Assembly: GCF_037126285.1 (NCBI RefSeq)
Contig: NZ_CP147012.1
Coordinates: 3,244,676-3,308,675, forward strand
DNA: 64,000 bases
Direction of reading: 5' to 3'
Origin: Bernardetia sp. MNP-M8
GTDB lineage: Bacteria; Bacteroidota; Bacteroidia; Cytophagales; Bernardetiaceae
Both the position numbers and the translations under genes were made by a program. Under the pieces are notes generated by a model. That model had not been told where the DNA came from, ran no database searches, and saw only the letters and a list, made by a program, of their open reading frames with translations. Of this stretch, positions 1 to 34,235 are shown piece by piece; position 1 is the stretch's first letter; each line of letters begins with the position of its first letter.

Positions 1-1602
1 TCCTATCCAAATATCATTATATGTATCTTGCATCATTGTCCAGACACTATTGTCTGCAAGTTGAGGGTCATTTTTTTCTTGTTTATTTGCTAATTTGGTC
101 AAATCAAATGGAATAGCTTCAGAAGTAGAGTTTCCTGTAAGTCCTAATGATTTTAAATTGTATTTGTACAATCCGTCTTGTAGTGTTCCTATCCAAAGAT
201 TTCCATTTTTATCTTCTAATAAGCTCAAAATATGTTTGTTTCGAAGTCCAATTTTATCACTTATTTTGATGAGTTGCCATTCTGTTGATTCTGGTTTTGG
301 CATATAGACATACAATCCATTTTCTGTTCCCAACCAAGTATTTCCTAAATAATCTTGTTCTAAAGCCCAAATTTCGGTTTGAAGATGGTGTGCTACATAT
401 TGTAACGGAATTGGATAATTATAAAAGACCTCTTTTTCTTCATCATATTTATTAAGACCATCATAAGTTCCTATCCACATGATGCCACTTCGGTCGTGGT
501 AGATAGTTTGTACAATATCATCACTCAATGAATACTGTTCAGCATCATTCTGACGGATAGTTATGATCTGTTCTGTTTTGGCTATAAAACGATTTATTCC
601 ACCTCCATACGTTCCTACCCAAATGTCTCCTTTTTGATCTTGTGCAATTGTTTTGACAATATCATTACTAAGTGTATGTGGGAAACTTGTAGAAGAATAT
701 TTTTGTACTTCTGTTTTTTTTCTATCTAATTTAAAAGCTCCTTCTTGTGTTCCTATCCAAAGATTTTGTTTTTTATCTTCAAAAAAAGTATAGACAGGAA
801 ATTGTGTAAGTTGTTTGTCATTTATAAAAACAGAAACAAATGCTTTACGGTGTCTATCTAATTTATAAAGACCATTTTCAGTTCCTACCCAAAATGTACT
901 ATCACTATCTTCGAATAAAGCCAAAACAGGAACATCTAAAAGACCATTATATTCTTGTGAGTATTCTATACTATTATTTAGCTTATCATAAATCTTGATT
1001 CCGTTTTCAGTTCCTACCCAAAGTGTTTCATGACTATCTTGAAAAATACTTCTTACTGTACGAGTATTTAGATTAGAAATTTTGTTTTCTTTAAGTCTGT
1101 ATTGAATAAAACGATCTTGAGTAAAGTCATATTTATTGATTCCATTTGTAGTTCCTACCCAAAGCACTCCATTATCGTCTTGATGTAAAGCTGTTACCAT
1201 TCCAGAGGAAAGTGAAGAAGAATCTTCTACTATGTGCGTATAGTTTTTGAACTCATATCCATCATAACGACTAAGTCCGTCACCTGTTCCTACCCATAAA
1301 AAACCACGAGTATCCTGTAAAATAGCAGTAATATTATTTTGTGCTAAACCATCATCAGAGTTAAATTTCTTGAAACGCAAGCCCATTATTGCTTGTGCTT
1401 GTTGTATTTGTTCGGCTTGTATTTGTTTAGAAATTCCTTTTTGGGCGTACGTAGAAAAACTAGAGCCAAAGAAAAAGACTACCAAAAGGACAATGTAACC
1501 TAGAAGAGGTACTATAAAAAATGGAAGCGAAAAAACACTTCTATATAGGTTATATAAATTGTTTTTGGTAAAATTAGTATTTAAAGAAGATAGAGATCTC
1601 AT
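1..1602 (-). CDS. Two-component regulator propeller (Y_Y_Y-type beta-propeller repeat) domain protein, N-terminal part. It has an N-terminal TM helix, starts at ATG 1602 and the ORF runs off the window at position 1. Probably the sensor part of a large hybrid kinase or AraC-type regulator.
   Basis: The reverse-strand reading frame is open from 1602 to 1 (534 codons). Repeated 'W(I/V)GT..GL..YD' propeller motifs, e.g. LADNSVWTMMQDTYNDIWIG at the window edge. Hydrophobic N-terminus. Confidence 0.65.
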   Translation of the reverse strand, partial: MRSLSSLNTNFTKNNLYNLYRSVFSLPFFIVPLLGYIVLLVVFFFGSSFSTYAQKGISKQIQAEQIQQAQAIMGLRFKKFNSDDGLAQNNITAILQDTRGFLWVGTGDGLSRYDGYEFKNYTHIVEDSSSLSSGMVTALHQDDNGVLWVGTTNGINKYDFTQDRFIQYRLKENKISNLNTRTVRSIFQDSHETLWVGTENGIKIYDKLNNSIEYSQEYNGLLDVPVLALFEDSDSTFWVGTENGLYKLDRHRKAFVSVFINDKQLTQFPVYTFFEDKKQNLWIGTQEGAFKLDRKKTEVQKYSSTSFPHTLSNDIVKTIAQDQKGDIWVGTYGGGINRFIAKTEQIITIRQNDAEQYSLSDDIVQTIYHDRSGIMWIGTYDGLNKYDEEKEVFYNYPIPLQYVAHHLQTEIWALEQDYLGNTWLGTENGLYVYMPKPESTEWQLIKISDKIGLRNKHILSLLEDKNGNLWIGTLQDGLYKYNLKSLGLTGNSTSEAIPFDLTKLANKQEKNDPQLADNSVWTMMQDTYNDIWIG

Positions 1603-19116: not shown

Positions 19117-22100
19117 ATGAAGCACAGATATTCGTTTTCTTCTTCAAAGAACTCAATTATTTCTTATCAAAAACTTGTATTATTACTTGTTTTGGGAATA
19201 GGTATGTTGAGTTCTCAAATGCAATCAGCAATTGCACAAAGCTCTTCCCCTTCCTTACGTTTAAAATCGTCTATTGAACAGTATACATCAAATACTGAGC
19301 AGTTTAAAAATGATAAGAGTAGTTTTTCAGATGCTCTTTTTGGAAATCATTATTTTTTAGTAGTACAATTTACTACTCTGCCATCATATCAAGAACGTCA
19401 AAATCTAAAAAGTAAAGGTATCGAACTGATTCAGTATTTGCCAGATTTATCCTATACTGCAAAAATCAATTCTACTATTTCTAATGATAAATTAGAAGCT
19501 CTTATTTCAGATTTTAAGATTCATGCGTTTGTAAAACTGTCTGTTAATCAAAAAACGCAAACAAGATTAGTACAAGGAGATATTCCTGAGTGGGCTATTT
19601 CTGAGTCTAATCAAGTAGAATTGAATATTATTCCTTTTGATACTGTAAATCCAATGCTTACTTCTATGGCTATGACAAACATGGGAGGAAAGCTAATCTA
19701 TGAAAGTAAAGTATCAGGTATTTTGACAGTAAGTGTCCCTCAAACGGCAATTATGCAAGTAGCTAGTTTGCCTTGGGTACTTTGGGTAGAATCTTTACCA
19801 GAGCCTCCAAAAGAAGAAAATTATTATGGAAAATCAGCTCACCGTTCGGCTATCCTAAATTATGGTGCTAGAAATTTAGATGGTTCAGGAGTGAATCTTG
19901 GAATTTGGGACGGAGGAAACGTTGCAAATCATTTAGACTTTAGTGGAAGACGTACTCTTGTAGAAAATACATCAGATAGCGACCACGGAACACACGTAGC
20001 AGGAACAATGGCAGGAGCAGGTTTACTAAATCCTAGAAATACAGGAATGGCTCCTAATGCTCAAATTTATTCTCATAACTTTAATGGAGATATTGCTACT
20101 GAAATGCAAAATGCCATTACTAACTTTGGTATTGTAATTACTCAAAATTCATACGGAGGAGGTCCTAATTGTGCTACTGGAGACCCTTATGGTAGTAATA
20201 ATAGAGGACAAGATTTATTAGTAAATAATAATCCTCAACTTGTCCATGTATTCTCATCAGGCAATTCTCAAAGTTCTTGTGCAGGTGGTTTTGGAACAAC
20301 AACAGGAAAAGCAGCCAAAAATACAATTACAGTAGGAGCTTTAACAAATAACGATGTTATTACTACATTTAGTAGTTTTGGTCCTCTTGAAGATGGACGT
20401 ATCAAACCTGAAGTAAGTGCATTTGGAAATGGTGTAGTTTCTACATTACCAAGTAATGGATATGGAGCAAATAGTGGTACTTCAATGGCAGCACCAGGTG
20501 TTTCGGGTACGGTAGCTCAACTTTATCAAAGCTATCGTCAATTAAATGGAAATGCAGACCCTATTGCCTCACTTATGAAGGCTGTGTTATCAAATAATGC
20601 TGATGATTTAGGAAATACAGGTCCTGATTATAAATATGGTTTTGGTAGAATTAATGGTTTGAAAGCTGTTAAAGCATTAGAGGGAAATAATTATGCAATA
20701 AATACAGTTACGACAGCAGGACAAAATGATGTTACTATTGCTGTTCCTGCTGGTACACACGAATTGAAAGTAATGTTATGTTGGTCAGACCCAGCAGCAG
20801 CAGCAAATGCAAATCCTGCTTTGATAAATAATTTGGATTTAGAAGTATTAGACCCAACTACAAATACATGGCTTCCTTGGACATTAGACGGCGCAAATCC
20901 GAATAATGTAGCTATTAGAGCTGTAAATAATGTAGATATTATCGAACAAGTAACTATTCCTACCCCAGCAACAGGAACATACACACTAAGAGTAAAAGGA
21001 ACGGCTGTTCCTTCTGGAGCAAATCAGCAATATTCATTGACTTGGACAGTTACAGAACCTTATATTGAAGTTACTTATCCATCAGCAGGAGTGTCTTTGA
21101 CTCCTTCTGCTACTGAACTTATTCAATGGGATATGGAAGGAGTTTCAGGAACTACTTCTGTTGAATATTCTTTGGATAATGGAACTACTTGGACAGTTAT
21201 TAATGGTGCTGTGGCTGCCAACACTCGTCGTTTGAGTTGGACAGTTCCAAATGCAATGACTAATGAAGCGAAAATTCGTGTTTCTTCAACAACTCCATCT
21301 TTAAGTGGAACAAGTGAAGCATTTTCAATTATTGGTGTTCCTACTGGCATTACAGGTCAGCCTTGTAGTGGTTCAGCTATCTTACAATGGAATGCAGTAA
21401 CTGATGCAGACGAGTATATTGTTTATCAGTTGAACACTACTACTGGAGTATATACACAAATAGGAACAAGTGCAACTACTACTTTTACTGCAACAGGGCT
21501 TTCAGGACAAACTTGGTTTAGTATTCGTGCAAGAAATACAACTACAGGAGCTACAAGTCAGCGTTCAGTAGCATTTTCTATTACTCCTGCTGCTGGCTCA
21601 GGAATAGATTTAGAACTTTCAGCAATCGTTTCTCCAACACAAGGTTGTGATTTGAGAACAGCTGCTGAAGCCATTACAATTCGTATCAAAAACTTAGCTT
21701 GTTCTGCTATACCAAGTGGAACAACAATCCCAGTTTCTTATACAGTAAATGGGGGAACAGCAGTAAATGAAAACCTTGTTTTAGCTAGTGATTTGAATGG
21801 TGCAGCTAGTTTAGATTATACATTTACTACTACAGTAGATATGTCAGCAGGAGGTAGTTATGTTCTTACAGCATCTGCTAACCTAGCAACTGATACAAAT
21901 GGAGCAAATAATACTATTTCAAATCATACAGTTCAAAATAATCCTCCTGTTACTGTACTACCTTATACAGAAGATTTTGAGAATCCAAGCCCTGCAGAGT
22001 GTTGGGATATAATAAATGATGGAGCAGGAGTTGGAACTTGGCAATATGGAACTAACTTGGGAAGTTCTTTCTTTATTATCCCAGATGTTCCTGCTGGTAA

Positions 22101-25100
22101 TCAATATGCAGCAGCAAACGATGATGCTTGTCCTAGTCCAGGTTGTGGAGCACCTTATAAATCGTGGTTGATTAGTCCAAAATTTGATTTTTCCTCTTAT
22201 TCTCAAATTGAAATGGCATTTAGAGCTGTATTCCGAACGGATAGAGGAGAAGTTCGTATAAGTACAGATAGAATTACTTGGACAACCATTCATTCAATGG
22301 CATCTATATCTGGCGTTTGGCAAGATATTACCTTAGATTTAGATGCATATGCTAACGAACCTCAAGTATGGATTGCTTTTTACTATGATGATTTGAATAC
22401 TTGGGGATATGGTTTTGCTGTTGATGATGTAGTTGTAAGAGAAAAAGCTATTCAATTAGTTAGTTTTTTGCCTGCAAACAATGCGACTAATGTAGATACA
22501 AATACATCACTAGCTCTTACTTTTAATCGTGTTCCTACTATCGGTACAGGCTCTATTACTCTTACAGGAGGAGCTACTCCAATTGTAATTCCTGTTTCTG
22601 CAACTAATACTACAATTACAGGAAATACAGCAACCGTAACTTTACCTTCAGCACTAGCAACTTCTACAACTTATTCTGTGGATGTTCCTAGCAGTACATT
22701 TACAGCTAATAGTTTAGGTTTTGGAGGAGTTTTACCTGCTAACTGGCAGTTTACTACTATTACTACATCAGCAGATGCAGACTCACGAATTGTTGCGCCC
22801 ACTACAATGCCTGCTTCTGCCTCAATATCTTCATTGGCTACTACATCAGCTAGTGCAGTAGAAGTATTTTCTTTTAAGGTAGAGGATTTAGCAACGACAG
22901 ATGCTTTACCTACCGATGTAACTCAGATTGATGTTAAACAAGGAGCTGCAAATACAGTAACAGACTGGACAACACAACTACAAGGAGCAGAATTATGGTC
23001 TGGAGGAACTCAGATTACTGCAACCACAACTATTACAGCAGATAGAATTCGTTTTACTATTCCTGCTGGTAATGCAAGTATAGCAAATGGAACAAATACA
23101 GATTATACTATAAAAGTGTTTTTGAATACAACAGGAATTTTAGACGAAGGAGTATTACAATTCCAAATTCCTACTGTGGCACATGGAGTACAAACTTCAA
23201 ATAGTTCTTCTTCTTTTGCCTCTACTTTTCCTGCTAATGTAGTATCAAATACATTTACTTTAGATGTGGTGGCTACACGTTTAGGTTTTTCAACTGTACC
23301 AACAACAGCAACTGTTAATTCAAACTTTGCAGTAAGCGTACAGGCACTTGATGCAAATGGAAATATAGACCGAGCAGCCAGAACAATTACATTGTTAAGA
23401 GATGGAGGAACTGGAACAGGAGTTCTTAGTGCTACTTCTGGATTAGGAAGTCGTGCTATGATAAATGGAGTATTTACTTGGTCAGATTTACAATTTGATG
23501 AAATTGGAGAGTATAGTATACGAGTAAATGATGATGGAAGTGCTTTTACCGATTTAAGTAGCCTTATAAATGTAGTTGCTCCAACAGGTGGAGGAGGAAA
23601 TACTATACCATCAGTATCTGCACCTACACAATTTAAAGCTATTGCAATAGATACTTCTCGTATTGACCTTACTTGGCAAGCTGCTACAAATGCAACTGGG
23701 TATAAGTTATATAGATTAAACCGTTTGGTGGCAACTCTATCAGCTTCTACTCTTTCTTACGATGATAGCTTATTGAATGAAGATACTTTTTATGGGTATA
23801 GACTAGAAGCATTCAATTCAGTATCTAGAAAAGAAGTTGCTACCAATGCTGTTACTTACCCTAAAGCTCCAACATTAATAAGCAAAACAGATGCTTGTGC
23901 AGGTGGAAAAGGAAAGATTGTAGTAAATAGCACACATACAACAAGAAGTATTCTTTGGTATGAGTCTGAAACAGCTACTGAGCCTATTCAAGATGATTCT
24001 TACACTTTCGAAACTCAAAACCTTACTGCTGCAAAAACCTATTATGTCACTGCAAATGGTATTCGTTATGAAAGTCAGACTAGATTAGCTGTTACTATTG
24101 ATGTTAAAGAAATTCCAGTAGCAATTATTTTAGGAGATTTAGTCCGTTCAACCTGTGAGAACACATTGACTTTAGAAGCAGATACACAAAATGCTTCTTC
24201 TGATTTGATTTATACTTGGTATTCAAATGGAGTAGCTATACAAAATAGTAATGCGCCAACTTATCAAGCTACTAGAAGTGGAAACTACTCATTAAGAATA
24301 ACACAAAATGAGTGTGTTTCGATGGTATCTTCAACTGTTCAAGTGAAAGTAGGACAAGTTGCTCCTGCTCAAATAGAACAAGGTAGTCAAGTATCGTTGT
24401 GTGAAATAGGTGAGTTATCTGCTTTAGAAGTAGAAGGTGCAACTTATCAATGGTTGTTTAATGATACTGAAGTAGGAACAAGTTCTTCTATTACAGTTTC
24501 TAATTCAGGAACGTATACATTGCGAGTAAGCAAAGAAACATGTACTCAAGAAGCTCAAATTAATGTAGAAGTAATTTCATTTCCAACAGATATTAGTATT
24601 ACTACTGACAAAGAGCAATTTTGTGCAGGAGACCAAAGTGCTACAATTTCTGTTTCAGAAGTAGAAAATGCAATGTATACTTTATTCAGAAATGGAAATA
24701 GATTGCGTATAGGTTCTGAAAATAGAAACTTTACTGTGAATAGTTCAGGGGAGTATCATGTTGAGATTTCTTTAGGTACTGGTTGTGTATTCATTACGGA
24801 TTCAGTGAGTATTGAAAGAATAGATGTTCCAACAGCACATATAAATCTAATAGAAGAAAATATGGCAACAATAACATCTACTGGAACAATTACAGAAGTA
24901 GAGTGGAACAAAGATGGTGAAATGCTTAGTGTTTCTAATTCTCTTTCACTTGCTCTTAATGAAACAGGGCGTTACAGAGCTAAAGTTACCTATGATACAG
25001 GTTGTCAAGCTATTACTTCAAATAGTATTTTCTATCGCAAACCAGAACCAGTTACAGGTGTTGAGGACGAAGAAGGAAATTGTTGTACAGTAGTTTATCC

Positions 25101-25332
25101 AAACCCAACTAGTTCTGAGGTTCGTTTGAAATTAGCAGCCAACTTAAAAGATGCCTTCACACTTACACTTACTGATGGTATTGGTAGAACTCTCATCACT
25201 AAATCTATTTCCAAAGAAGAATCTCAACAAGAAATCCGTTTGGATTTGAGTAAGTATGCTTCGGGAATGTATTTTATCAATGTAGTTACGCCAAGCGAAA
25301 CACTTACTTTCAAAATAGCTAAAGAAGATTAA
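19117..25332 (+). CDS. Giant secreted subtilisin-family (S8) peptidase with many Ig/FN3-like repeats, a MAM-like domain and a T9SS C-terminal sorting domain
   Basis: Catalytic triad contexts 'GIWDGGNV' (Asp), 'HGTHVAGT' (His), 'GTSMAAPGVSG' (Ser). The C-terminal 'VYPNPTSSEVRLK...MYFINVVT' matches the Por/T9SS CTD pattern. 2071 aa. Confidence 0.85.
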   Translation: MKHRYSFSSSKNSIISYQKLVLLLVLGIGMLSSQMQSAIAQSSSPSLRLKSSIEQYTSNTEQFKNDKSSFSDALFGNHYFLVVQFTTLPSYQERQNLKSKGIELIQYLPDLSYTAKINSTISNDKLEALISDFKIHAFVKLSVNQKTQTRLVQGDIPEWAISESNQVELNIIPFDTVNPMLTSMAMTNMGGKLIYESKVSGILTVSVPQTAIMQVASLPWVLWVESLPEPPKEENYYGKSAHRSAILNYGARNLDGSGVNLGIWDGGNVANHLDFSGRRTLVENTSDSDHGTHVAGTMAGAGLLNPRNTGMAPNAQIYSHNFNGDIATEMQNAITNFGIVITQNSYGGGPNCATGDPYGSNNRGQDLLVNNNPQLVHVFSSGNSQSSCAGGFGTTTGKAAKNTITVGALTNNDVITTFSSFGPLEDGRIKPEVSAFGNGVVSTLPSNGYGANSGTSMAAPGVSGTVAQLYQSYRQLNGNADPIASLMKAVLSNNADDLGNTGPDYKYGFGRINGLKAVKALEGNNYAINTVTTAGQNDVTIAVPAGTHELKVMLCWSDPAAAANANPALINNLDLEVLDPTTNTWLPWTLDGANPNNVAIRAVNNVDIIEQVTIPTPATGTYTLRVKGTAVPSGANQQYSLTWTVTEPYIEVTYPSAGVSLTPSATELIQWDMEGVSGTTSVEYSLDNGTTWTVINGAVAANTRRLSWTVPNAMTNEAKIRVSSTTPSLSGTSEAFSIIGVPTGITGQPCSGSAILQWNAVTDADEYIVYQLNTTTGVYTQIGTSATTTFTATGLSGQTWFSIRARNTTTGATSQRSVAFSITPAAGSGIDLELSAIVSPTQGCDLRTAAEAITIRIKNLACSAIPSGTTIPVSYTVNGGTAVNENLVLASDLNGAASLDYTFTTTVDMSAGGSYVLTASANLATDTNGANNTISNHTVQNNPPVTVLPYTEDFENPSPAECWDIINDGAGVGTWQYGTNLGSSFFIIPDVPAGNQYAAANDDACPSPGCGAPYKSWLISPKFDFSSYSQIEMAFRAVFRTDRGEVRISTDRITWTTIHSMASISGVWQDITLDLDAYANEPQVWIAFYYDDLNTWGYGFAVDDVVVREKAIQLVSFLPANNATNVDTNTSLALTFNRVPTIGTGSITLTGGATPIVIPVSATNTTITGNTATVTLPSALATSTTYSVDVPSSTFTANSLGFGGVLPANWQFTTITTSADADSRIVAPTTMPASASISSLATTSASAVEVFSFKVEDLATTDALPTDVTQIDVKQGAANTVTDWTTQLQGAELWSGGTQITATTTITADRIRFTIPAGNASIANGTNTDYTIKVFLNTTGILDEGVLQFQIPTVAHGVQTSNSSSSFASTFPANVVSNTFTLDVVATRLGFSTVPTTATVNSNFAVSVQALDANGNIDRAARTITLLRDGGTGTGVLSATSGLGSRAMINGVFTWSDLQFDEIGEYSIRVNDDGSAFTDLSSLINVVAPTGGGGNTIPSVSAPTQFKAIAIDTSRIDLTWQAATNATGYKLYRLNRLVATLSASTLSYDDSLLNEDTFYGYRLEAFNSVSRKEVATNAVTYPKAPTLISKTDACAGGKGKIVVNSTHTTRSILWYESETATEPIQDDSYTFETQNLTAAKTYYVTANGIRYESQTRLAVTIDVKEIPVAIILGDLVRSTCENTLTLEADTQNASSDLIYTWYSNGVAIQNSNAPTYQATRSGNYSLRITQNECVSMVSSTVQVKVGQVAPAQIEQGSQVSLCEIGELSALEVEGATYQWLFNDTEVGTSSSITVSNSGTYTLRVSKETCTQEAQINVEVISFPTDISITTDKEQFCAGDQSATISVSEVENAMYTLFRNGNRLRIGSENRNFTVNSSGEYHVEISLGTGCVFITDSVSIERIDVPTAHINLIEENMATITSTGTITEVEWNKDGEMLSVSNSLSLALNETGRYRAKVTYDTGCQAITSNSIFYRKPEPVTGVEDEEGNCCTVVYPNPTSSEVRLKLAANLKDAFTLTLTDGIGRTLITKSISKEESQQEIRLDLSKYASGMYFINVVTPSETLTFKIAKED

Positions 25333-25360
25333 TCTAGTTTAATTAGAAAGCAATATAGAA

Positions 25361-25397
25361 AAAAGGCAAATTCTTAATTTGAGAATTTGCCTTTTTT
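25361..25397 (+). terminator. Rho-independent terminator after the S8 peptidase gene
   Basis: aaaaaaggcaaattct taatt tgagaatttgccttttttt hairpin plus T-run. Confidence 0.7.
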
Positions 25398-25753
25398 TGT
25401 CAAAGCTTATTAAAAAATAGAACTATGTGTATTTTAAAAGAGATAAAGTAGTATTGTTTTTTGATTCTGTATGCAAATTTGTGCTAGTCTGGTCTGTGCC
25501 ACCAAACTACTAAAAAGAAAGTGTAGTATTGTAAATAAAATTTGCAAAAAAAAATTACATTAATATATTGTTGAAAATAATTATTATTGAATATTATAAG
25601 TACTTGTAAATTATCAATATTTAAAAAATGTAGTTTGAGTAAAAGTATATATTTCATAAAGATTAACATCATTTAAGTTGTTGAAAATCAATTTATTGTG
25701 TTTTTTGTTGAAAATAATTATATTTGTATTTGGAATTGAAGTTTCTTTTTTGC

Positions 25754-25777
25754 GATATTTACAACATCAAACTTACT
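25754..25777 (+). promoter_or_regulatory. Conserved upstream element GATATTTACARCRTCAAACTTACT. A second copy at 26465..26488 sits the same ~75 nt before peptide 2, each preceded by a TTGAAAATAA...TATTTGGAA box.
   Basis: Two near-identical copies at fixed distance from the peptide start codons. A partial third copy lies at 26341..26360. Confidence 0.45.
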
Positions 25778-25854
25778 CCAAAAACTAATTAAAAATTTTG
25801 AAAAGTGGTTTGAATATTATTTATAAATTATCATTTTTAAACTTATTTTTTATT

Positions 25855-26025
25855 ATGAAGTCTTTGAAAAAGAAATTTGGAAAATTTGTGGTTTCTGAAA
25901 AAGAAATCCAAAAACTGAAAGGTGGTTTTAATTACTGTAATTGTGATCATTATCATAATTGTCCAAGAGGAGCAGCAAATTATATCGAACAACCAACAGG
26001 TTGTCAAGCTGTATGTTGTGGCTAA
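25855..26025 (+). CDS. Double-glycine-leader Cys-rich precursor peptide 1, MKSLKKKFGKFVVSEKEIQKLKGG|FNYCNCDHYHNCPRGAANYIEQPTGCQAVCCG
   Basis: Leader paralogous to two downstream peptides. The GG motif precedes a 6-Cys core. The internal ATG was chosen over the ORF-track start 25798 by paralog alignment. Confidence 0.65.
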   Translation: MKSLKKKFGKFVVSEKEIQKLKGGFNYCNCDHYHNCPRGAANYIEQPTGCQAVCCG

Positions 26026-26061
26026 AATGAGCTCAATATAGTTCAGTTTTGTGTATACAAT

Positions 26062-26092
26062 CACGTCTTACAAAATCTTGTAAGACGTGGTT
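26062..26092 (+). terminator. Terminator hairpin after peptide 1
   Basis: cacgtcttacaa aatc ttgtaagacgtg, a perfect 12-bp stem, followed by ttattt. A second hairpin, aaaaaaggcgtttt ataa aacgccttttttt, lies at 26148..26186. Confidence 0.65.
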
Positions 26093-26204
26093 ATTTAAAG
26101 ATGATTTAAAATTGGCTCTTTATCTGAAACACAATACCACTTCTAGCTAGACAAAAAAGGCGTTTTATAAACGCCTTTTTTTGTCAAAGGTTATTTCAAA
26201 AAAA

Positions 26205-26310
26205 TCAATCAAGCTCAAATTTCAAGTAATATTATATTACTTTTTGCATACTATAAAGTAGAGTCTTTAGCTATTTAGATTAAAAAGAAAGAATTATCAT
26301 AAATTATAAC
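26205..26310 (+). pseudogene. Remnant of the 5' part of a second C39-like/VKOR gene, homologous to 27160..27260
   Basis: About 100 nt at ~75% identity to the region encoding DAQTLSDLTTLLAHYKIESLAVQIGKEH of the 27083 gene. The reading frame is interrupted by a stop. Confidence 0.55.
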
Positions 26311-26562
26311 CTTTGAAAAATAGCAATATGTTGGGTTTTAATTACAACATCAAATACTTTGTGTTTTGAAAAAATAACATTTTGTAATTTACTGTTATTC
26401 AGAAAGTTATATCTTTTTTGAAAATAAATGTAATTTTTATTTGGAAATATGATTTATTTTTATTGATATTTACAGCGTCAAACTTACTTAGTAAGTATTA
26501 GAAATATATAAGTAAGTAATCTTGATAAATTATTTTAATTATACCTATTAAACTCAATTTTT

Positions 26563-26715
26563 ATGAAATCTTTGAAAAAGAAATTTGGAAAATTTGCTAT
26601 CTCTCAAGAAAAAGCAAATAAAGTAAACGGTGGTGAGCCACCATATCCGTGTAAGAATAAGTATTTTCCTAATCCAAATGATCCTTTTGAGTGTGATCCA
26701 CTTAGAGGAAATTAA
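26563..26715 (+). CDS. Double-glycine-leader precursor peptide 2, MKSLKKKFGKFAISQEKANKVNGG|EPPYPCKNKYFPNPNDPFECDPLRGN
   Basis: 50-aa ORF below the ORF-track cut-off. The leader and 5' flank are nearly identical to peptide 3. 2-Cys Pro-rich core. Confidence 0.6.
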   Translation: MKSLKKKFGKFAISQEKANKVNGGEPPYPCKNKYFPNPNDPFECDPLRGN

Positions 26716-26779
26716 ATTCATTTATTATTGATTCATTTTGTATCAATATTTTTTAATAAAACATCTGAACTCAATTTTT

Positions 26780-26965
26780 ATGAAATCTTTGAAAAAGAAA
26801 TTTGGAAAATTTGCTATCTCTCAAAAACAGAGCAAACAAATTACAGGGGGTTTTGATAATTGTGAAGTAGTTTTTTGGTGTCAAGGTAAAACGTATCCTA
26901 CAAAATCACAATGTGAGTCAGGGTGTGATGATTTTTGCTATGGACAATATGTATTTCCGTGCTAG
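26780..26965 (+). CDS. Double-glycine-leader Cys-rich precursor peptide 3, MKSLKKKFGKFAISQKQSKQITGG|FDNCEVVFWCQGKTYPTKSQCESGCDDFCYGQYVFPC
   Basis: Paralogous leader. 6-Cys core. Own terminator at 26987..27038 (atagcgatagaa...ttctatcgctat + T-run). Confidence 0.65.
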   Translation: MKSLKKKFGKFAISQKQSKQITGGFDNCEVVFWCQGKTYPTKSQCESGCDDFCYGQYVFPC

Positions 26966-27082
26966 TATAAGTAATTAATATAAAAAATAGCGATAGAATA
27001 AACTTTGGTATTGCCAAACTTCTATCGCTATCTTTTTTGTAGTTTTGCAAGCAAAAAAAACAATATTTAAAGCAATTGTAAT

Positions 27083-28741
27083 ATGAAAACTATTGTAAGT
27101 ATCCTATTAGATAAATTTGAAGTTTCTTACACTATCACTTATTTACAAAAACTGACAGCAAAATATAATGATGCTCAAACATTAAGTGATCTTACTACAC
27201 TTTTAGCACACTATAAAATAGAGTCTTTAGCTGTTCAGATTGGAAAAGAACATTTATCAGAAATTCCTTTGCCTGCTATTGTTTTGGCTTCTCATAATGA
27301 TGAAAATGGAAGAACACACACTGATTATTCTATTTTAGACGAAGTTAGAGACAATGAAGTAGTCTTGATTAATGTGAATTCAGAGAAACAGATAGTTGAA
27401 ATAGAAGAATTTGAAAAATCATGGACAGGTTATACACTGTTATTAGATAAAAATGAAAATGCAGCAGAACCAAATTACTCTGCTCATAAAAAAGCACAAA
27501 AGAAACAACAGTTTTTTGACACTATAAAAAATACCATTCAATTTTTAGTGGGTATTTCTTTTTTATTTTTAGTTGGAAAAACTTTTTTTGACACGAATCA
27601 ACAAGTCACAAAGTCTATTCTTGAAATTTCCTTTTATATTTTACATACTATAGGATTTGTAATTAGTGCTATCTTACTTTCTGGAGAAATTTTTAAAAAT
27701 AATGCAGTTTTCAAAAAAGCTTGTACTGCCTTCGGAAAATCATCTTCATGTGCTGATACAAAACAAGAAAATACAAGTAAAATAGATTCAATCAAAAAAT
27801 GGTTTACCTTTTCAGAATTGGGTGTTTATTATTTCTTTGGGGCATTTTTATTTTTACTGATTGGTAATTTTAATTCTTTAACATTCGTTTTTCAGAGTTT
27901 GATTTCTGTTTTGGGGATTTTTGCAGTCATTGCATCTTTATATTATCAAAAGTTTATTCTTAAAGAATGGTGTTCGCTTTGTGTTTCTATAATGGCAGTT
28001 TTGTTTGTAGAATCTTTGGTAGGGGGAGTATATTTATTTAGCTTTCAAGATGAAATTTCATCTTTTACTTTTACTTTGTATTCTGTTTTTTCAATTTTAG
28101 TAATAGCTGTTTTTTCATTCCTGTTGCCTATATTTATTTGGAATATTTTAAAACCAGTTCTTGAAAAATATAACTCTTCTAATAACGAAACTAAGAATCT
28201 ACGTTCTTTTAAGTATGATTATGAGGTTTTCAAAACACTTCTTCATCAAAATAAAAAAGTAGATATAAGCGAAGTTCCAACCCATTTTGTAGAAGGAAAT
28301 ACTATTTCAGCCGAACTAGAGGAAGAAGAAGAGGAGAATAAAGTTTCTTTAGTTGTCATTAGTCGCCCTACTTGTCCACCTTGTATTAGTGCAAAGAAAG
28401 ATTTACAAAAATTGAGAGAAGATTTTGGCAATTATTTTACTACAACTATGTGCCATTTGACTCCCAATCAAACAAGTGAAGATTACAAGCAGATTTCAGA
28501 AATGTTATCCCATCTTCCGACATTTTATTCTGATAAAGAAAAAGAAAGTATCATTTCACAACATTATACTTGGATAAATCAGACAGGAATTACTTTTACA
28601 CCTGCTTTTATTGTAAATGGGTATTTATTACCAGAAAAATATACAGTTACTGATTTAGAGTATTTTTTAGTGCATTTGGCTAGTGAAATGGATGATTCAG
28701 AAGAAAATCCAGAAGAAGAACTATCTTTGCAAGAAAACTAA
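27083..28741 (+). CDS. Fusion protein with an N-terminal peptidase-C39-like domain lacking the catalytic Cys, a VKOR-like 5-TM core (loop Cys pair CTAFGKSSSC, TM 'CSLC') and a C-terminal thioredoxin-like domain ('TCPPC')
   Basis: 'IPLPAIVLASHND' and 'EEFEKSWTGYTLLLD' match the C39 C-terminal half but no Cys occurs in the first ~140 aa. Multi-TM middle with CxxC. 'VVISRPTCPPCISAKK' Trx motif. Confidence 0.7.
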   Translation: MKTIVSILLDKFEVSYTITYLQKLTAKYNDAQTLSDLTTLLAHYKIESLAVQIGKEHLSEIPLPAIVLASHNDENGRTHTDYSILDEVRDNEVVLINVNSEKQIVEIEEFEKSWTGYTLLLDKNENAAEPNYSAHKKAQKKQQFFDTIKNTIQFLVGISFLFLVGKTFFDTNQQVTKSILEISFYILHTIGFVISAILLSGEIFKNNAVFKKACTAFGKSSSCADTKQENTSKIDSIKKWFTFSELGVYYFFGAFLFLLIGNFNSLTFVFQSLISVLGIFAVIASLYYQKFILKEWCSLCVSIMAVLFVESLVGGVYLFSFQDEISSFTFTLYSVFSILVIAVFSFLLPIFIWNILKPVLEKYNSSNNETKNLRSFKYDYEVFKTLLHQNKKVDISEVPTHFVEGNTISAELEEEEEENKVSLVVISRPTCPPCISAKKDLQKLREDFGNYFTTTMCHLTPNQTSEDYKQISEMLSHLPTFYSDKEKESIISQHYTWINQTGITFTPAFIVNGYLLPEKYTVTDLEYFLVHLASEMDDSEENPEEELSLQEN

Positions 28742-28806: not shown

Positions 28807-30138
28807 ATGGAAGATAATATAGAAAGAGAAGAGGTTTTTCGCTCTTATTCAGAAGAAACACAAGAATTATTGACAAGTCCACAAGGCTTTTTTATGCGTT
28901 CAGGTATTACAATCATCTTTGGTGTTTTGCTTCTAATGCTTGTCGTTTCTCATTTTATACGCTACCCTGAATTATCGACTTCAGAAGTAACACTATATGC
29001 AAATCAAGCAAAAGCAAGTTTGTTTCCAAAGATTAATAGCCGTATTATTTTTATAAATGCAGAACATAGTCAAGAGGTAAAAGAAAATGAGCTTTTATTA
29101 GTCTTGGAAAGCACAACAGATTGGAAAGAAGCCAAAAAGTTAGAAGATTATTTAGACACACTTTCTAGTCAAAATTCAGTATTTGAAAGTGTAGATTTTT
29201 TTCAAGAAAATGAAATTCCTCTTTTTACAAATTTGGGAAATTTACAATTAGATTACGAAAGACTAAAAAATAATATTTTAGATTATCAGTTATTTTCTAA
29301 AACTAACTCGCATGCTCAAAAACAAGCTGCTATTCGTTCAGAAATAGAAATTCAAAATTCGTTAAGAGTTATTTTACAAGAAAAATATGAACTTCAAGAA
29401 AGAGACTATGAGTTGAGCAAACAAAAATATATTACCGATTCATTATTGTATAAAAGTGAAGCAATTGCCAAACAAGAATTTTTACAAACAAAGAGCGCAT
29501 TTCTAAACAAAGAAAGTAGTTTTTTGCAAAATAAAGAAGCAAATCTAAATGCCCAAATGCGAGTTAGTCAGCTCAATCAACAGCTTGTAGAAGTTTCTAT
29601 TGCTTATCAAGAGCAAGCATTTAAGTATAAGCAACAATTACGAACTAGTTTTGCAACTCTAAAGAAAATGTTAGAAGATTGGAAAACCTCTTATTTGATT
29701 ATTAGTCCGATAGAAGGTAAAGTTAATTTCTTTAATCCTCTTAATTTGTATCAATCAGTTGGTATGGATAAAGAGGTTATTTCTGTTATTCCTCAAAAAA
29801 ATGCTATTTATGCCTATACAAAAGTAGACTCAAAACATATTTCTAAGCTCAAGGAGGGAAAAGAAGCCAATAAAGCAAAAATAAAATTAGAAGCCTATCC
29901 TTTTGCTCGTTATGGTTGGATAGAAGCAGAAGTTGCACAGATAAGCCTTGCGCCACAAGAAAATAAATATTCTGTCCAACTAAAACTAGACAATGGTTTA
30001 CAAACCAACAGAAAGGTCGAAGTAGATTTAGATTCTAAGAATGAAATTTATGGAACAGTAGAAATAGTTCTAGAGGAAAGAAGTCTACTAGATAAATTTT
30101 TGGAACAGACAGTCTATTCAGTTGAAGCCTTTGAATAA
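28807..30138 (+). CDS. HlyD-family membrane fusion protein (type I secretion / bacteriocin export adaptor)
   Basis: Cytoplasmic N-terminus, single TM 'IIFGVLLLMLVVSHFI', long coiled-coil region, C-terminal beta domain. Typical HlyD layout. Confidence 0.7.
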   Translation: MEDNIEREEVFRSYSEETQELLTSPQGFFMRSGITIIFGVLLLMLVVSHFIRYPELSTSEVTLYANQAKASLFPKINSRIIFINAEHSQEVKENELLLVLESTTDWKEAKKLEDYLDTLSSQNSVFESVDFFQENEIPLFTNLGNLQLDYERLKNNILDYQLFSKTNSHAQKQAAIRSEIEIQNSLRVILQEKYELQERDYELSKQKYITDSLLYKSEAIAKQEFLQTKSAFLNKESSFLQNKEANLNAQMRVSQLNQQLVEVSIAYQEQAFKYKQQLRTSFATLKKMLEDWKTSYLIISPIEGKVNFFNPLNLYQSVGMDKEVISVIPQKNAIYAYTKVDSKHISKLKEGKEANKAKIKLEAYPFARYGWIEAEVAQISLAPQENKYSVQLKLDNGLQTNRKVEVDLDSKNEIYGTVEIVLEERSLLDKFLEQTVYSVEAFE

Positions 30139-30156
30139 TAATAATACAGATAATAC

Positions 30157-30193
30157 AAAAAAAGCCTTTTTTCGTGAAAAAAAGGCTTTTCAG
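30157..30193 (+). terminator. Rho-independent terminator after the HlyD gene
   Basis: aaaaaaagcctttttt cgtg aaaaaaaggctttt. Confidence 0.7.
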
Positions 30194-30268: not shown

Positions 30269-30727
30269 TTAATTAGTCATATATTGACTCAAAATTGGGT
30301 TATCTCCCAAAATAGCGATTCCGACCATTAAAATTACGAGTACAACTCCCATTACAGTCATTGCACTTTTAAATTTGAATTCTTTCTTCATTACGTATGC
30401 AAAACCTGTAATCATTCCAACTGCGCCACCTAAAAGCGCACTACCAATAGCTAAAACAGCTATTCTACGAGCTAAGTTTACATCTGGATTATCCATAACA
30501 GAGTGCATAACAAAAACTTCTAAACCCACAGCGACCAAAAATACAACCATGCTTGTTAACATAACACGCATAATAAATGAAGGTGCTTGACCTGCTGGTC
30601 GGGATTGTACTTCATCAGAATCCAATTGATTAAGTTTTGCTTGTGCCGTTTCTTCAGATTCAAATTTAGAATCTCTGTCCATTGAGGTATAAGAAGTATC
30701 TTCTTGATTTGCTTGATAAGTTGCCAT
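30269..30727 (-). CDS. Hypothetical membrane protein (acidic N-terminus, 3 TM helices)
   Basis: ORF with clear hydrophobic segments. No recognised domain. Confidence 0.45.
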   Translation of the reverse strand: MATYQANQEDTSYTSMDRDSKFESEETAQAKLNQLDSDEVQSRPAGQAPSFIMRVMLTSMVVFLVAVGLEVFVMHSVMDNPDVNLARRIAVLAIGSALLGGAVGMITGFAYVMKKEFKFKSAMTVMGVVLVILMVGIAILGDNPILSQYMTN

Positions 30728-33200: not shown

Positions 33201-33662
33201 ATGGGCTTTATAAAAGAATTTAAGGATTTTGCTGTCAAAGGAAATGTCATTGATTTGGCTGTCGGTGTAATTATTGGAGGAGCTTTTGGGAAAATTGTAA
33301 CTTCACTTGTCAATGATATTATTATGCCTCCTATCGGAATATTGACGGGAGGAATTGATTTTGCTAATCTAAAATTTGTACTTAAAAGTGCTGTTTTAGA
33401 TGAAACAGGAAAAGTGATTGAAGAAGCTGTTTCTATCAATTACGGCAATTTTATCAATATTGTAATTCAATTTCTCATAATTGCTCTTTGTGTTTTTGCT
33501 GTTGTAAAGGCTTTTAATGCCTTAAAAAAGAAAGCAGAAGACCCAAAAAATGTAGAAGCACCAACACCAAAAGATATTCTATTGCTTACCGAAATTAGAG
33601 ATTTACTAAAAGGAAGTTCTTCAAATAATATAGAAGAAGAAGACAAACTGAAAACAGAGTAA
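33201..33662 (+). CDS. mscL: Large-conductance mechanosensitive channel MscL (copy 1)
   Basis: '[28 protein letters not shown]' canonical MscL N-terminus/TM1. Confidence 0.85.
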
Positions 33663-33818: not shown

Positions 33819-34235
33819 ATGGGATTAATCAAAGAATTTAAAGATTTTGCTGTTAAGGGCAATGTAGTCGACCTTGCTGTCGGTGTGATTATCGGTGCTG
33901 CTTTCGGAAAAATTGTTACTTCGTTTGTCAATGACATCGTTATGCCACCTATCGGATTGGCAACTGGAGGAGTAGATTTTGCAGACTTAAAGCTAGTATT
34001 AAAAGAAGCTGTTGTAGATGCAGCAGGCACAGTTACTACCGAAGCTGTAAGCATCAATTATGGTAATTTTTTGAATATCATAATTCAATTTTTGATTATT
34101 GCGCTTTGTGTGTTTGCTGTTGTTAAAGGCTTTAATTCATTAAAGAAAAAAGCAGAAGACCCAAAAAATCCAGAAGCCCCAACACCACAAGATATTTTGT
34201 TACTTACCGAAATTAGAGATTTATTGAAAAAATAA
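33819..34235 (+). CDS. mscL: Large-conductance mechanosensitive channel MscL (copy 2, tandem paralog)
   Basis: About 80% identical to copy 1 over the N-terminal 120 aa. Shorter C-terminus. Confidence 0.85.

What the first reader, a model, noticed from the sequence alone, without database searches (positions are those of the whole stretch)
25566..27046. Array of three paralogous double-glycine-leader, cysteine-rich precursor peptides, each a separate transcription unit
Three small ORFs share the leader MKSLKKKFGKF(A/V)(I/V)S.K......GG ending in Gly-Gly. Each has a different core: cores 1 and 3 have 6 Cys, core 2 is Pro-rich with 2 Cys. Each gene has its own terminator hairpin, and peptides 1 and 2 each carry the conserved composite upstream element. 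The 5' flanks of peptides 2 and 3 are almost identical over ~65 nt, indicating recent duplication followed by core diversification. Two of the three are below typical ORF-calling thresholds and would be missed by standard annotation. Even Cys counts imply disulfide-stabilised mature peptides, either bacteriocin-like or signalling.
Basis: seen in the sequence. Interest (0 to 1): 0.8.

Follow-up and report, generated by a model that had tools for sequence, protein, structure and literature searches.

The report
Disulfide peptide array with dedicated oxidase
Three small genes in a marine Bernardetia genome encode secreted cysteine-rich peptides (probably bacteriocins), and next to them sits an uncharacterised but widespread membrane enzyme that appears to recognise their shared leader and install their disulfide bonds, possibly on the cytoplasmic side before export.

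Summary
The three ORFs are real. p1 is 25855-26025, p2 is 26563-26715 and p3 is 26780-26965. They share a 24-aa double-glycine leader and have unrelated cores with 6, 2 and 6 Cys.

Several sub-claims fail:
- PGAP already annotates all three as hypothetical proteins.
- p2 has no terminator and p3 has no promoter-like block, so there are probably two transcripts (p1 alone; p2 with p3).
- The "identical 5' flank" of p2 and p3 is mostly leader-coding sequence.

The context explains the cysteines. Directly downstream lie a 552-aa fusion protein and an HlyD-type adaptor. The fusion joins a catalytically dead C39-like domain, a VKOR and a DsbA-like thioredoxin. This fusion family is large (at least 1187 clusters at 50% identity). 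In 15 of 15 loci examined it sits within 8 kb of GG-leader, Cys-rich peptides, usually with a C39-ABC exporter. The window itself has no exporter.

All 17 Bernardetia-clade peptides have an even Cys count.

The six-TM topology, the charge bias, the lack of a signal peptide and a PCAT-like N-terminal module suggest that all the functional domains face the cytoplasm.

Most likely these are bacteriocin-like precursors that receive leader-guided disulfides and are then exported. I rate this a new variant of a known kind. Everything here is computational.

The parts
25389..25418 (+). Short decayed remnant of the 5' end of the C39-like/VKOR/Trx gene, just after the terminator of the upstream S8 protease gene
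   Evidence: 84% identity over 32 nt to the L003 fusion gene 5' region. 90% identical to 26173-26201 (family D5).
25727..25777 (+). Promoter-like upstream block of p1 (TATTTGG, T-run, GATATTTAC, ATCAAACTTACT), resembling the Bacteroidota -33 TTTG / -7 TAnnTTTG layout
   Evidence: Repeated before p2 (2 matches against 0.01 expected). The block aligns with the regions upstream of peptide genes in L001-L003. The promoter assignment is inference.
25855..26025 (+). Peptide p1: 24-aa GG leader plus 32-aa core with 6 Cys (framework C-1-C-5-C-13-C-3-CC)
   Evidence: Annotated as WP_338790310. The framework is shared with an L010 peptide.
26059..26092 (+). Strong hairpin downstream of p1 (15 bp stem), likely terminator
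   Evidence: MFE -24.6 kcal/mol, z -4.73.
26127..26305 (+). Pseudogene remnant (~180 nt, in-frame stops) of the 5' end of a C39-like/VKOR/Trx gene. It contains a canonical terminator hairpin at 26153-26182.
   Evidence: 77.5% over 182 nt to the L003 lineage (E 1e-34), against 76.6% over 107 nt to the window's own gene. tblastn gives 59% identity over 51 aa with two stops. Hairpin z -5.38.
26438..26488 (+). Promoter-like upstream block of p2, a copy of 25727-25777
26563..26715 (+). Peptide p2: 24-aa GG leader plus 26-aa Pro-rich core with 2 Cys (C-13-C). No terminator follows it.
   Evidence: The spacer 26716-26779 folds at z 0.07.
26780..26965 (+). Peptide p3: 24-aa GG leader plus 37-aa core with 6 Cys. 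It has no promoter-like block of its own and is probably co-transcribed with p2.
26982..27038 (+). Intrinsic terminator after p3 (long hairpin followed by a T6 run)
   Evidence: MFE -25.4 kcal/mol, z -6.29.
27083..28741 (+). 552-aa membrane fusion protein. Residues 1-125 form a catalytically dead C39-like domain. An added TM helix follows at 151-169. The VKOR core spans about 182-317, with loop cysteines C214/C223 and the CSLC motif at 297-300. A sixth TM lies at 334-352. The C-terminus is a DsbA-like thioredoxin with CPPC at 431-434.
   Evidence: Pfam C39 9.6e-15, VKOR 1.5e-7, Thioredoxin_2 2.7e-5. The six redox Cys are invariant in 156 relatives. The catalytic Cys and His are absent. AF2 model pLDDT 88.9, pTM 0.80, with six TM helices. 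Foldseek matches ComA, PCAT1, LahT150, the HlyB C39-like domain, DsbA-like proteins and Synechococcus VKOR.
28807..30138 (+). 443-aa HlyD-family type I secretion adaptor (membrane fusion protein), 66 nt downstream of the fusion gene
   Evidence: NCBIfam TIGR01843 type_I_hlyD, E 1.1e-19, aligned over residues 30-429, below the curated cutoff. The same gene order occurs in all Bernardetia-clade loci.
30160..30190 (.). Bidirectional terminator hairpin closing the fusion-HlyD operon
   Evidence: Terminator scan, 13-15 bp stem on both strands.

Best explanation
p1, p2 and p3 are precursors of secreted, disulfide-stabilised peptides. They are most likely bacteriocin-type toxins of the double-glycine-leader class.

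Proposed pathway (shown: gene content, domain anatomy, conservation and linkage; inferred: every biochemical step):
1. Each precursor is made with a conserved 24-aa leader (V/I at -12, S at -11, L/V/I at -4, GG at -2/-1) and a hypervariable Cys-rich core.
2. The leader is bound by the catalytically dead C39-like domain of the adjacent 552-aa membrane protein. That domain lies on the same membrane face as the protein's DsbA-like thioredoxin domain (CPPC) and both VKOR cysteine pairs.
3. The thioredoxin domain oxidises the core cysteines to 3, 1 and 3 disulfides. Electrons pass through the VKOR cysteines to membrane quinone.
4. A peptidase-containing ABC exporter cleaves after GG and exports the peptide, working with the HlyD-type adaptor encoded immediately downstream. 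The exporter is adjacent in sister genomes and not within this window.

The most probable orientation puts all these domains in the cytoplasm, meaning an inverted VKOR. Disulfides would then be installed on the leader-bearing precursor before a type-I-style export that bypasses the periplasm.

The array appears to grow and change by cassette exchange. The conserved leader-coding sequence and the 5' end of the fusion gene serve as recombination anchors.
For: Leader and cores:
- The leader occurs 3 times against 0 expected.
- 17 peptides in 7 Bernardetia-clade genomes share the leader. Their cores are mostly unrelated, each has 2, 4, 6 or 8 Cys, and no leader contains a Cys.
- The p1 cysteine framework is conserved in an otherwise divergent L010 peptide.

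Fusion protein:
- Domains identified by Pfam, by a confident AF2 model and by Foldseek.
- All six redox Cys are invariant in 156 relatives.
- The C39 catalytic Cys and His are both absent here. Of 158 family members, 127 lack both and only 2 keep both.
- hhalign to the clade's own exporter C39 domain gives probability 95.9%.

Export genes:
- HlyD adaptor.
- A bona fide exporter with QMDCG and NHFVVV motifs is adjacent in L001, L002 and L010.

Linkage:
- The fusion family has 1187 50%-identity clusters at E <= 1e-30.
- 8 of 8 distant loci (~25% identity) carry GG/GS-leader peptides with 4-9 Cys within 8 kb. 5 of those 8 also have a C39-ABC exporter, each with a ~430-450-aa gene in the adaptor position (Pfam AprE beta-barrel hit in 2 of the 5).

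Topology:
- There are six TM helices, so the N- and C-terminal domains lie on the same side.
- There is no signal peptide.
- Over 156 proteins, K+R in the flanks of the first and last TM is 3.8 + 2.5, against 0.96 in total on the opposite face.
- The family profile aligns to PCAT1 through the C39 domain, the linker and TM1.

Precedent: bacteroidetocin loci need a TM protein and a thiol oxidoreductase for full toxin activity (PMC6671954).
Against: - No C39-ABC exporter lies within the 64-kb window, so export in this strain depends on a gene I could not see.
- No immunity gene is recognisable. The TlpA-like redoxins that accompany the peptides in most relatives are absent here.
- The predicted mature peptides are anionic (pI 4.1-6.0), unlike typical cationic class II bacteriocins.
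- Leader binding by the dead C39 domain is inferred from homology only.
- All characterised bacterial VKORs face the periplasm. Charges in the VKOR core loops are uninformative because canonical VKORs also carry positive loop charges (bioRxiv 10.64898/2026.03.26.714578).
- 2 of the 17 peptides counted in the distant loci have odd Cys counts (7 and 9).
- There are no expression, mass-spectrometry or activity data.
Confidence: 0.7

Rival explanations
1. Same components, but classical orientation. The VKOR and thioredoxin domains face the periplasm as in all characterised bacterial VKORs. Because there are six TMs, the C39-like domain is then periplasmic too. The peptides would be oxidised after crossing the inner membrane, and the dead C39 domain would bind the core, a still-attached leader, or a partner protein.
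For: - Characterised bacterial VKOR-Trx proteins are periplasm-facing (established knowledge; Synechococcus VKOR is matched).
- The thioredoxin domain is DsbA-like.
- The neighbouring TlpA-like redoxins in relatives carry signal peptides, so periplasmic redox chemistry is associated with these loci.
- VKOR loop charges are not decisive.
Against: - It requires translocating a folded ~130-aa N-terminal domain with no signal peptide, past a juxtamembrane segment that has 5 Lys in 15 residues.
- The N-terminal module is homologous to the PCAT C39 domain plus linker plus TM1, which is N-in.
- PCATs remove the leader on the cytoplasmic side. Type-I-style export bypasses the periplasm, so a periplasmic leader-binding domain would have no ligand.
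Confidence: 0.2
2. The peptides are secreted signalling pheromones (ComC/BlpC-like GG-leader signals) and not toxins.
For: - GG-leader peptides exported by C39-ABC transporters include quorum-sensing pheromones (established knowledge).
- The cores are anionic and small.
- Some distant loci have a response regulator or histidine kinase nearby (L007, L132, L133, L004).
Against: - No sensor kinase or response regulator adjoins the array in the window. The nearest hybrid kinase is about 11 kb away, behind unrelated genes.
- The pattern of multi-copy arrays of mutually unrelated cores, rapid cassette turnover between close strains and up to 8-9 Cys is typical of toxin diversification.
- Peptide/redoxin pairing in relatives looks like toxin/immunity pairing.
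Confidence: 0.1
3. The locus is an orphan or decaying remnant in this strain. Without an exporter the three peptides are not matured or secreted, and the genes persist only as recombination stock.
For: - No exporter lies within 64 kb.
- Pseudogene remnants of the fusion gene lie within the array.
- The upstream neighbour is an unrelated S8 protease, where sister genomes have the exporter.
Against: - The fusion gene, the HlyD gene and all three peptide ORFs are intact.
- p2 and p3 are identical, and p1 is in the same 90%-identity cluster (at least 90% identical), in a second strain, Wsw4-3y2.
- L008 and L009 also lack an exporter within 8 kb yet keep intact loci. A distal exporter is therefore the simpler reading.
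Confidence: 0.1

Closest known systems
Bacteroidetocins (class IIf bacteriocins of Bacteroidales; Coyne et al. 2019, PMC6671954)
   Same: - Bacteroidota GG-leader peptides with an even number of Cys.
- The locus carries dedicated redox proteins (a 5-TM protein and a thiol oxidoreductase, both needed for full activity) plus a C39-ABC exporter.
- Disulfides are inferred from the reduced versus non-reduced gel shift.
   Different: - The leader here is 24 aa, not 15-16.
- The mature peptides show no sequence similarity and are anionic, not basic.
- The redox parts are fused into one polypeptide and carry an extra dead C39-like domain.
- An HlyD adaptor is present.
- I could not test whether the bacteroidetocin 5-TM protein is a VKOR homologue.
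Class II microcins and class II bacteriocins exported by peptidase-containing ABC transporters (e.g. MccV with CvaB/CvaA/TolC; PCAT1)
   Same: - Double-glycine leader with the LSxxELxxIxGG-type pattern.
- C39-ABC exporter plus HlyD-type adaptor.
- Some members carry 1-2 disulfides (PMC12219008).
   Different: - Those systems have no dedicated leader-linked oxidase.
- The window lacks the exporter itself.
- The cores carry up to three predicted disulfides in 32-37 residues.
Dedicated thiol-disulfide oxidoreductases in Gram-positive bacteriocin operons (sublancin BdbA/BdbB; pediocin PedC-type accessory proteins). This entry rests on my own knowledge.
   Same: A bacteriocin operon encodes its own membrane oxidase and thioredoxin-like partner, so that the GG-leader peptide gets the correct disulfides.
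   Different: - Those are DsbB/DsbA-type or PedC-type proteins acting outside the membrane.
- They have no leader-recognition domain.
- They have no VKOR.
- They are not fusions.
HlyB C39-like domain (PDB 3ZUA)
   Same: C39 fold without catalytic activity, used as a substrate-binding module in a type I secretion context. It is structurally matched by the N-terminal domain (TM 0.68).
   Different: In HlyB the domain is part of the ABC transporter and binds an unfolded RTX substrate. Here it is fused to an oxidoreductase, and it lacks both the Cys and the His.
Synechococcus VKOR-Trx fusion (PDB 3KP9/4NV5) and archaeal inverted VKORi (Aeropyrum/Pyrobaculum)
   Same: - Four-helix VKOR core with a loop Cys pair and a CxxC motif.
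- A fifth TM linking to a C-terminal thioredoxin-like domain.
- Cytoplasm-facing VKORs exist in hyperthermophilic archaea (cited in bioRxiv 10.64898/2026.03.26.714578).
   Different: - An extra N-terminal TM and a C39-like domain.
- The predicted orientation is opposite to bacterial VKORs.
- The substrates appear to be dedicated peptides and not general exported proteins.

Membership tests
Double-glycine-leader peptides (substrates of peptidase-containing ABC transporters; class II bacteriocin / class II microcin type) | N-terminal leader of about 15-30 aa ending in GG, with conserved positions (hydrophobic at -4, -7 and -12; Ser at -11; Glu at -8) | tested here: met
   All three leaders have GG at -2/-1, L/V/I at -4, V/I at -12 and S at -11. 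p1 also has I at -7 and E at -8. p2 and p3 have A or S at -7 and K or Q at -8.
Double-glycine-leader peptides (substrates of peptidase-containing ABC transporters; class II bacteriocin / class II microcin type) | Cognate ABC exporter with a catalytic C39 domain (Cys and His) encoded in the locus | tested here: not met
   tblastn finds none in the 64-kb window. One is present and adjacent in L001, L002 and L010, and in 5 of 8 distant loci. The rest of this genome could not be searched.
Double-glycine-leader peptides (substrates of peptidase-containing ABC transporters; class II bacteriocin / class II microcin type) | HlyD-type accessory / membrane fusion protein | tested here: met
   28807-30138 matches TIGR01843 at E 1.1e-19 over its full length, although below the curated cutoff.
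Double-glycine-leader peptides (substrates of peptidase-containing ABC transporters; class II bacteriocin / class II microcin type) | Leader cleaved after GG during export; antibacterial activity; cognate immunity | not testable with these tools
   Needs mass spectrometry and bioassays. No immunity gene was recognised in the window.
Bacteroidetocins (class IIf) | 15-16-aa GG leader | tested here: not met
   The leaders here are 24 aa. Bacteroidetocin A and B have 15-aa leaders (PMC6671954 supplement).
Bacteroidetocins (class IIf) | Mature peptide homologous to bacteroidetocins A/B | tested here: not met
   blastp-short best E 0.033 against a 2-sequence database, with no meaningful alignment.
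Bacteroidetocins (class IIf) | Locus with a TM protein, a thiol oxidoreductase and a C39-ABC exporter | tested here: inconclusive
   Functionally analogous parts are present but fused and extended. The exporter is absent from the window. The sequences of the bacteroidetocin TM and oxidoreductase proteins were not available for comparison.
Peptidase C39 (bacteriocin-processing cysteine peptidase) | C39 fold | tested here: met
   Pfam PF03412 at 9.6e-15. Foldseek TM 0.67-0.72 to the ComA, PCAT1 and LahT150 peptidase domains. hhalign probability 95.9%.
Peptidase C39 (bacteriocin-processing cysteine peptidase) | Catalytic Cys and His | tested here: not met
   The protein starts just after the Cys position, and the His column holds Asp. 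Of 158 relatives, 127 lack both residues. It should therefore be filed as a C39-like pseudo-peptidase domain, not as a peptidase, despite the NCBI name.
VKOR family (PF07884) with fused thioredoxin-like domain | Four-helix core with a loop Cys pair and a CxxC motif at the start of TM4; an extra TM linking to a thioredoxin-fold domain with CxxC | tested here: met
   C214, C223, C297, C300, C431 and C434 are invariant or nearly so in 156 proteins. Pfam VKOR 1.5e-7. Foldseek hit to Synechococcus VKOR 4nv6, probability 0.99.
VKOR family (PF07884) with fused thioredoxin-like domain | Active sites facing the periplasm (as in characterised bacterial VKORs) | tested here: inconclusive
   Three things predict the opposite (cytoplasmic) orientation: an extra N-terminal TM, the charge bias of 6.3 against 0.96 K+R, and the PCAT-like N-terminal module. 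There is no experimental topology.
TIGR04149 (GG_sam_targ_CFB, rSAM-modified RiPP precursors of Bacteroidota) | Score above the curated cutoff and an adjacent radical SAM maturase | tested here: not met
   p1 scores 14.5 bits against a cutoff of 25. p2 and p3 have no hit. No radical SAM gene is nearby.

The most novel reading that the evidence does not exclude
Disulfide formation here may be a genuine leader-dependent, RiPP-style modification carried out in the cytoplasm. A pseudo-protease (dead C39) domain, borrowed together with its first TM helix from a bacteriocin exporter, docks the GG leader. It presents the core to an inverted, quinone-linked VKOR/DsbA-like module on the cytoplasmic face. 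Knotted peptides are thereby made before type-I export that bypasses the periplasm. This would be the first bacterial inward-facing VKOR and a new class of leader-recognition element. It would be present in more than a thousand Bacteroidota protein clusters now annotated only as 'C39 domain-containing' or 'thioredoxin domain-containing' proteins.
Probability: 0.45. Interest if true: 0.8.

Novelty: new variant of a known kind. Interest (0 to 1): 0.62.

Why it matters
Peptides exported by type-I-style systems in Gram-negative bacteria never pass through the periplasm, where disulfides are normally made. How they acquire correct disulfide bonds is therefore poorly understood.

This locus, and the large family it belongs to, points to a dedicated answer: an oxidase physically coupled to a leader-binding domain.

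If the mechanism holds, it would:
- give a genome-mining handle for thousands of hypervariable, disulfide-knotted peptides in environmental Bacteroidota (the handle is the fusion gene);
- offer a possible tool for making multi-disulfide peptides in the bacterial cytoplasm;
- provide a testable case of VKOR topology inversion in bacteria;
- correct the database name, because the protein is not a peptidase.

Tried and rejected
- Pfam and NCBIfam on the three peptides gave only sub-threshold leader-like hits (bactofencin A, TIGR04149). They belong to no curated family.
- Rfam on 25300-27100 gave nothing near any gathering score, so the conserved blocks are not a known RNA.
- A search for the exporter or TlpA-like redoxins in the window found none.
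- The exact look-up of the window's fusion protein in the contig index found nothing on record.
- The genome-contig scan returned only three close loci because the patterns were narrow.
- The second word-indexed protein search, with the family alignment, returned only the Bernardetia cluster and was wasted.
0 of 120 stretches encode a real leader peptide, so that test was uninformative.
- The first AF2 model, from 10 sequences, was too poor in the membrane part (pTM 0.34). It was replaced by the 130-sequence model.
- The afdb50 fold library was unavailable.
- I tried to use canonical VKOR loops as a charge control. Only a eukaryotic VKOR-like protein aligned, and its lumenal loop is also positively charged. 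I therefore dropped the VKOR core loops from the topology argument.
- A functional link to the upstream 2071-aa S8/T9SS protease was rejected because it is not conserved at this position in any other locus.
- Literature searches for VKOR with C39 or with bacteriocin found no description of the fusion. Subscription-only papers were not searched.
Full report
**Observation.** The window comes from Bernardetia sp. MNP-M8 (Cytophagia, Bacteroidota). The 552-aa protein downstream of the finding is 100% identical to a protein of that genome. Three small + strand ORFs are present as described:
- p1, 25855-26025, 56 aa
- p2, 26563-26715, 50 aa
- p3, 26780-26965, 61 aa

Each starts MKSLKKKFGKF and has Gly-Gly at residues 23-24. 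A 34-nt leader pattern occurs exactly three times in 64 kb, with none expected in shuffles. The cores carry 6, 2 and 6 Cys, and core 2 has 7 Pro in 26 residues. The cores have no detectable similarity to one another. The leaders fit the canonical double-glycine pattern: V/I at -12, S at -11, L/V/I at -4 and GG. p1 also has E at -8 and I at -7.

**Sub-claims that fail.**
- All three ORFs are already annotated as hypothetical proteins WP_338790310, WP_338790311 and WP_338790312. They recur in a second strain, Wsw4-3y2.
- p1 is followed by a strong hairpin (z -4.7) and a second canonical terminator (z -5.4). p3 is followed by a strong terminator (z -6.3). The p2-p3 spacer folds no better than shuffled sequence (z 0.07).
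- A 51-nt block (TATTTGG, T-run, GATATTTAC, ATCAAACTTACT) precedes p1 and p2. It aligns with the regions upstream of homologous peptide genes in three other genomes. It resembles the Bacteroidota -33/-7 promoter layout, which is my inference. p3 has no such block. Two transcription units (p1 alone; p2 with p3) are therefore more likely than three.
- The 'identical 5' flank' of p2 and p3 is a 57-nt identical run from -12 to +45, so it is mostly leader-coding.

**Surroundings.**
- Upstream lies an unrelated 2071-aa S8 subtilase with a T9SS sorting domain.
- Downstream, after the p3 terminator, lies a 552-aa protein with Pfam C39, VKOR and thioredoxin matches.
- 66 nt further on lies a 443-aa HlyD-family type I secretion adaptor (TIGR01843, E 1e-19, full length, below the curated cutoff).
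- A bidirectional terminator closes this pair.
- The 64-kb window contains no C39-ABC exporter and no TlpA-like redoxin.

**Comparative evidence.** In six other Bernardetia-clade genomes the fusion-HlyD pair is preceded by one to three small genes with the same leader, M[KNQDS]SLK[KE]KFGKF...GG (one variant peptide in L001 starts MSLLKSKFGKF and has GAGG at the leader end). That gives 17 peptides in 7 genomes.
- Most cores are unrelated, apart from a few recurring frameworks (for example CC-12-C-9..12-C). Every one has 2, 4, 6 or 8 Cys, and no leader has a Cys.
- p1 shares its cysteine framework (C-1-C-5/6-C-11/13-C-3-CC) with an otherwise divergent peptide in L010. A conserved disulfide scaffold would produce this.
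- A bona fide exporter (QMDCGPTC and NHFVVV motifs; TIGR03796 and TIGR01193 hits) lies divergently upstream in L001, L002 and L010.

The fusion architecture is a large family. It has 3890 representatives at E <= 1e-3 and 1187 at E <= 1e-30. The top 150 are almost all full-length matches of 500-560 aa. It is common in Chitinophagaceae and other Bacteroidota, where it is annotated only as 'thioredoxin domain-containing protein' or 'C39 domain-containing protein'.

I examined eight distant loci, about 25% identical to the window protein.
- All eight carry GG/GS-leader peptides with 4-9 Cys within 8 kb.
- Five also carry a C39-ABC exporter followed by a ~430-450-aa gene in the adaptor position; two of these have a Pfam AprE-type beta-barrel hit and the other three have no Pfam hit on record.
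- Most interleave the peptide genes with signal-peptide-bearing TlpA-like redoxins.

**Anatomy of the fusion protein.** With a 130-sequence alignment AlphaFold gives a confident model (pLDDT 88.9, pTM 0.80). It has an N-terminal alpha/beta domain, six long helices and a C-terminal thioredoxin fold. Foldseek matches:
- The N-terminal domain matches the peptidase domains of ComA, PCAT1 and LahT150 (which was solved with a bound leader), and the inactive C39-like domain of HlyB (TM 0.67-0.72).
- The C-terminus matches DsbA-like proteins.
- The middle matches Synechococcus VKOR.

The VKOR loop cysteines (C214, C223), the CSLC motif (297-300) and the thioredoxin CPPC motif (431-434) are invariant or nearly so in 156 relatives. 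In contrast, the C39 catalytic residues are missing. The protein begins just after the Cys position, and the His column holds Asp. Among 158 family members, 127 lack both residues and only 2 keep both. The domain is therefore a pseudo-peptidase. Its most plausible retained function is leader binding, which is inference.

**Topology.** Six TM helices place the C39-like domain, both VKOR cysteine pairs and the thioredoxin domain on one face of the membrane. This geometry suits a leader-docking domain that presents a core to the oxidase. Several points bear on which face that is:
- There is no signal peptide.
- The segment before the first TM is Lys-rich.
- Across 156 proteins, the flanks of the first and last TM carry 3.8 + 2.5 K+R, against 0.96 in total on the opposite face.
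- The family profile aligns to PCAT1 and ComA through the C39 domain, the linker and into exporter TM1. This suggests the N-terminal module was taken from an exporter, where it is N-in.

Together these points favour a cytoplasmic face, meaning a VKOR inverted relative to all characterised bacterial ones. Inward-facing VKORs are known from hyperthermophilic archaea (bioRxiv 10.64898/2026.03.26.714578). I dropped the VKOR core-loop charges from the argument because a canonical lumen-facing VKOR also has a positively charged loop. I put the cytoplasmic orientation at roughly two in three.

**Mechanism proposed.**
1. Precursors are made with a conserved leader.
2. The dead C39 domain docks the leader.
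3. The thioredoxin CPPC motif oxidises the core cysteines. Electrons flow through the VKOR cysteines to quinone.
4. A C39-ABC exporter, distal in this strain, cleaves after GG and exports with the HlyD adaptor.

Type-I-style export bypasses the periplasm, so a cytoplasm-facing dedicated oxidase would explain how such peptides become disulfide-bonded. Gene content, domain identity, residue conservation and genomic linkage are shown. Binding, oxidation, orientation, cleavage, export and biological activity are all inferred.

**Array evolution.** Window 26127-26305, between p1 and p2, is a ~180-nt pseudogene copy of the fusion gene's 5' end with in-frame stops. It is slightly closer to the L003 lineage (77.5% over 182 nt, E 1e-34) than to the window's own gene (76.6% over 107 nt). 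It contains the second 'terminator' hairpin. A shorter remnant lies at 25389-25418. L001 has an analogous remnant that matches the L002/L003-type gene and not its own. Together with the near-identical leader-coding DNA, this indicates cassette gain and replacement by recombination between two conserved anchors.

**Comparison with known systems.** The closest described system is the bacteroidetocin (class IIf) locus. It has a GG-leader 4-Cys peptide, a 5-TM protein, a thiol oxidoreductase and a C39-ABC exporter. Both accessory proteins are needed for full activity (PMC6671954). The window peptides are not bacteroidetocins:
- The leaders are 24 aa, not 15.
- There is no sequence similarity.
- The cores are anionic.

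They also fall below the cutoffs of TIGR04149 and of every other curated family. Class II microcins share the export logic but have no dedicated oxidase. Gram-positive operons with BdbA/BdbB-type or PedC-type oxidoreductases share the principle, but not the fold, the fusion or the leader-binding domain (my own knowledge). Searches of open-access papers and bioRxiv found no description of a C39-VKOR-thioredoxin fusion.

**Verdict.** The peptide array is real and is best read as a bacteriocin-like, disulfide-knotted peptide locus. That makes it a new member of a familiar class. It is probably a leader-guided disulfide installer, and it may face the cytoplasm.

Weaknesses:
- The exporter is not in the window.
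- No immunity gene is recognisable.
- The cores are anionic.
- Two distant peptides have odd Cys counts.
- There are no experimental data.

Noticed in passing
L005 724-7169; L134 9791-17623; L009 1-7446; L008 2502-6776; L003 362-2450; L002 1805-6991: In most related loci each GG-leader Cys-rich peptide gene is followed by a TlpA-like AhpC/TSA-redoxin gene whose product has an N-terminal signal peptide (up to 4-5 peptide/redoxin pairs in a row). This looks like toxin/immunity pairing, for example a periplasmic reductase that undoes the toxin's disulfides. The window's array has none.
   Followed up: partly
window 26127-26305 and 25389-25418; L001 5711-5848; L002 4226-4265: Pseudogene remnants of the 5' end of the C39-like/VKOR/Trx gene lie between or upstream of peptide genes. 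At least two match another lineage's gene better than the resident one, which indicates cassette exchange by recombination. One remnant has become, or contains, a canonical terminator hairpin.
   Followed up: yes
L132 4545-17605: One distant copy of the fusion gene, with an 8-Cys GG-leader peptide and a redoxin, sits among an integrase, RteC, a relaxase, a TraG-like coupling protein and SSB. It is on an integrative conjugative element, so the system is mobile.
   Followed up: no
window 30269-30727 (-): A 152-aa predicted membrane protein with no family hit lies directly after the HlyD gene. Homologues occupy the same position in L003 (5786-6169, -) and L010 (11083-11466, -). It may be a backbone gene or an immunity candidate.
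   Followed up: partly
window 19117-25332 (+): A 2071-aa S8 subtilase with Ig-like repeats and a T9SS C-terminal sorting domain occupies the position where sister genomes have the C39-ABC exporter. It is not conserved next to the peptide locus elsewhere.
   Followed up: partly
window 33201-33662 and 33819-34235 (+): Two tandem full-length MscL (large-conductance mechanosensitive channel) paralogues, each with Pfam E ~1e-46.
   Followed up: no
window 27083-28741: Public annotation names this protein 'cysteine peptidase family C39 domain-containing protein', and one homologue 'ABC-type bacteriocin/lantibiotic exporter'. It lacks the catalytic Cys and His and has no ABC domains, so both names are misleading.
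   Followed up: yes
L005 7181-7525: A stand-alone 114-aa ORF encodes only the N-terminal part of a catalytic C39 domain (QQDSMDCGPACLAM) just upstream of the fusion gene. It may be a truncated exporter fragment, which again suggests recombination between exporter and fusion genes.
   Followed up: no
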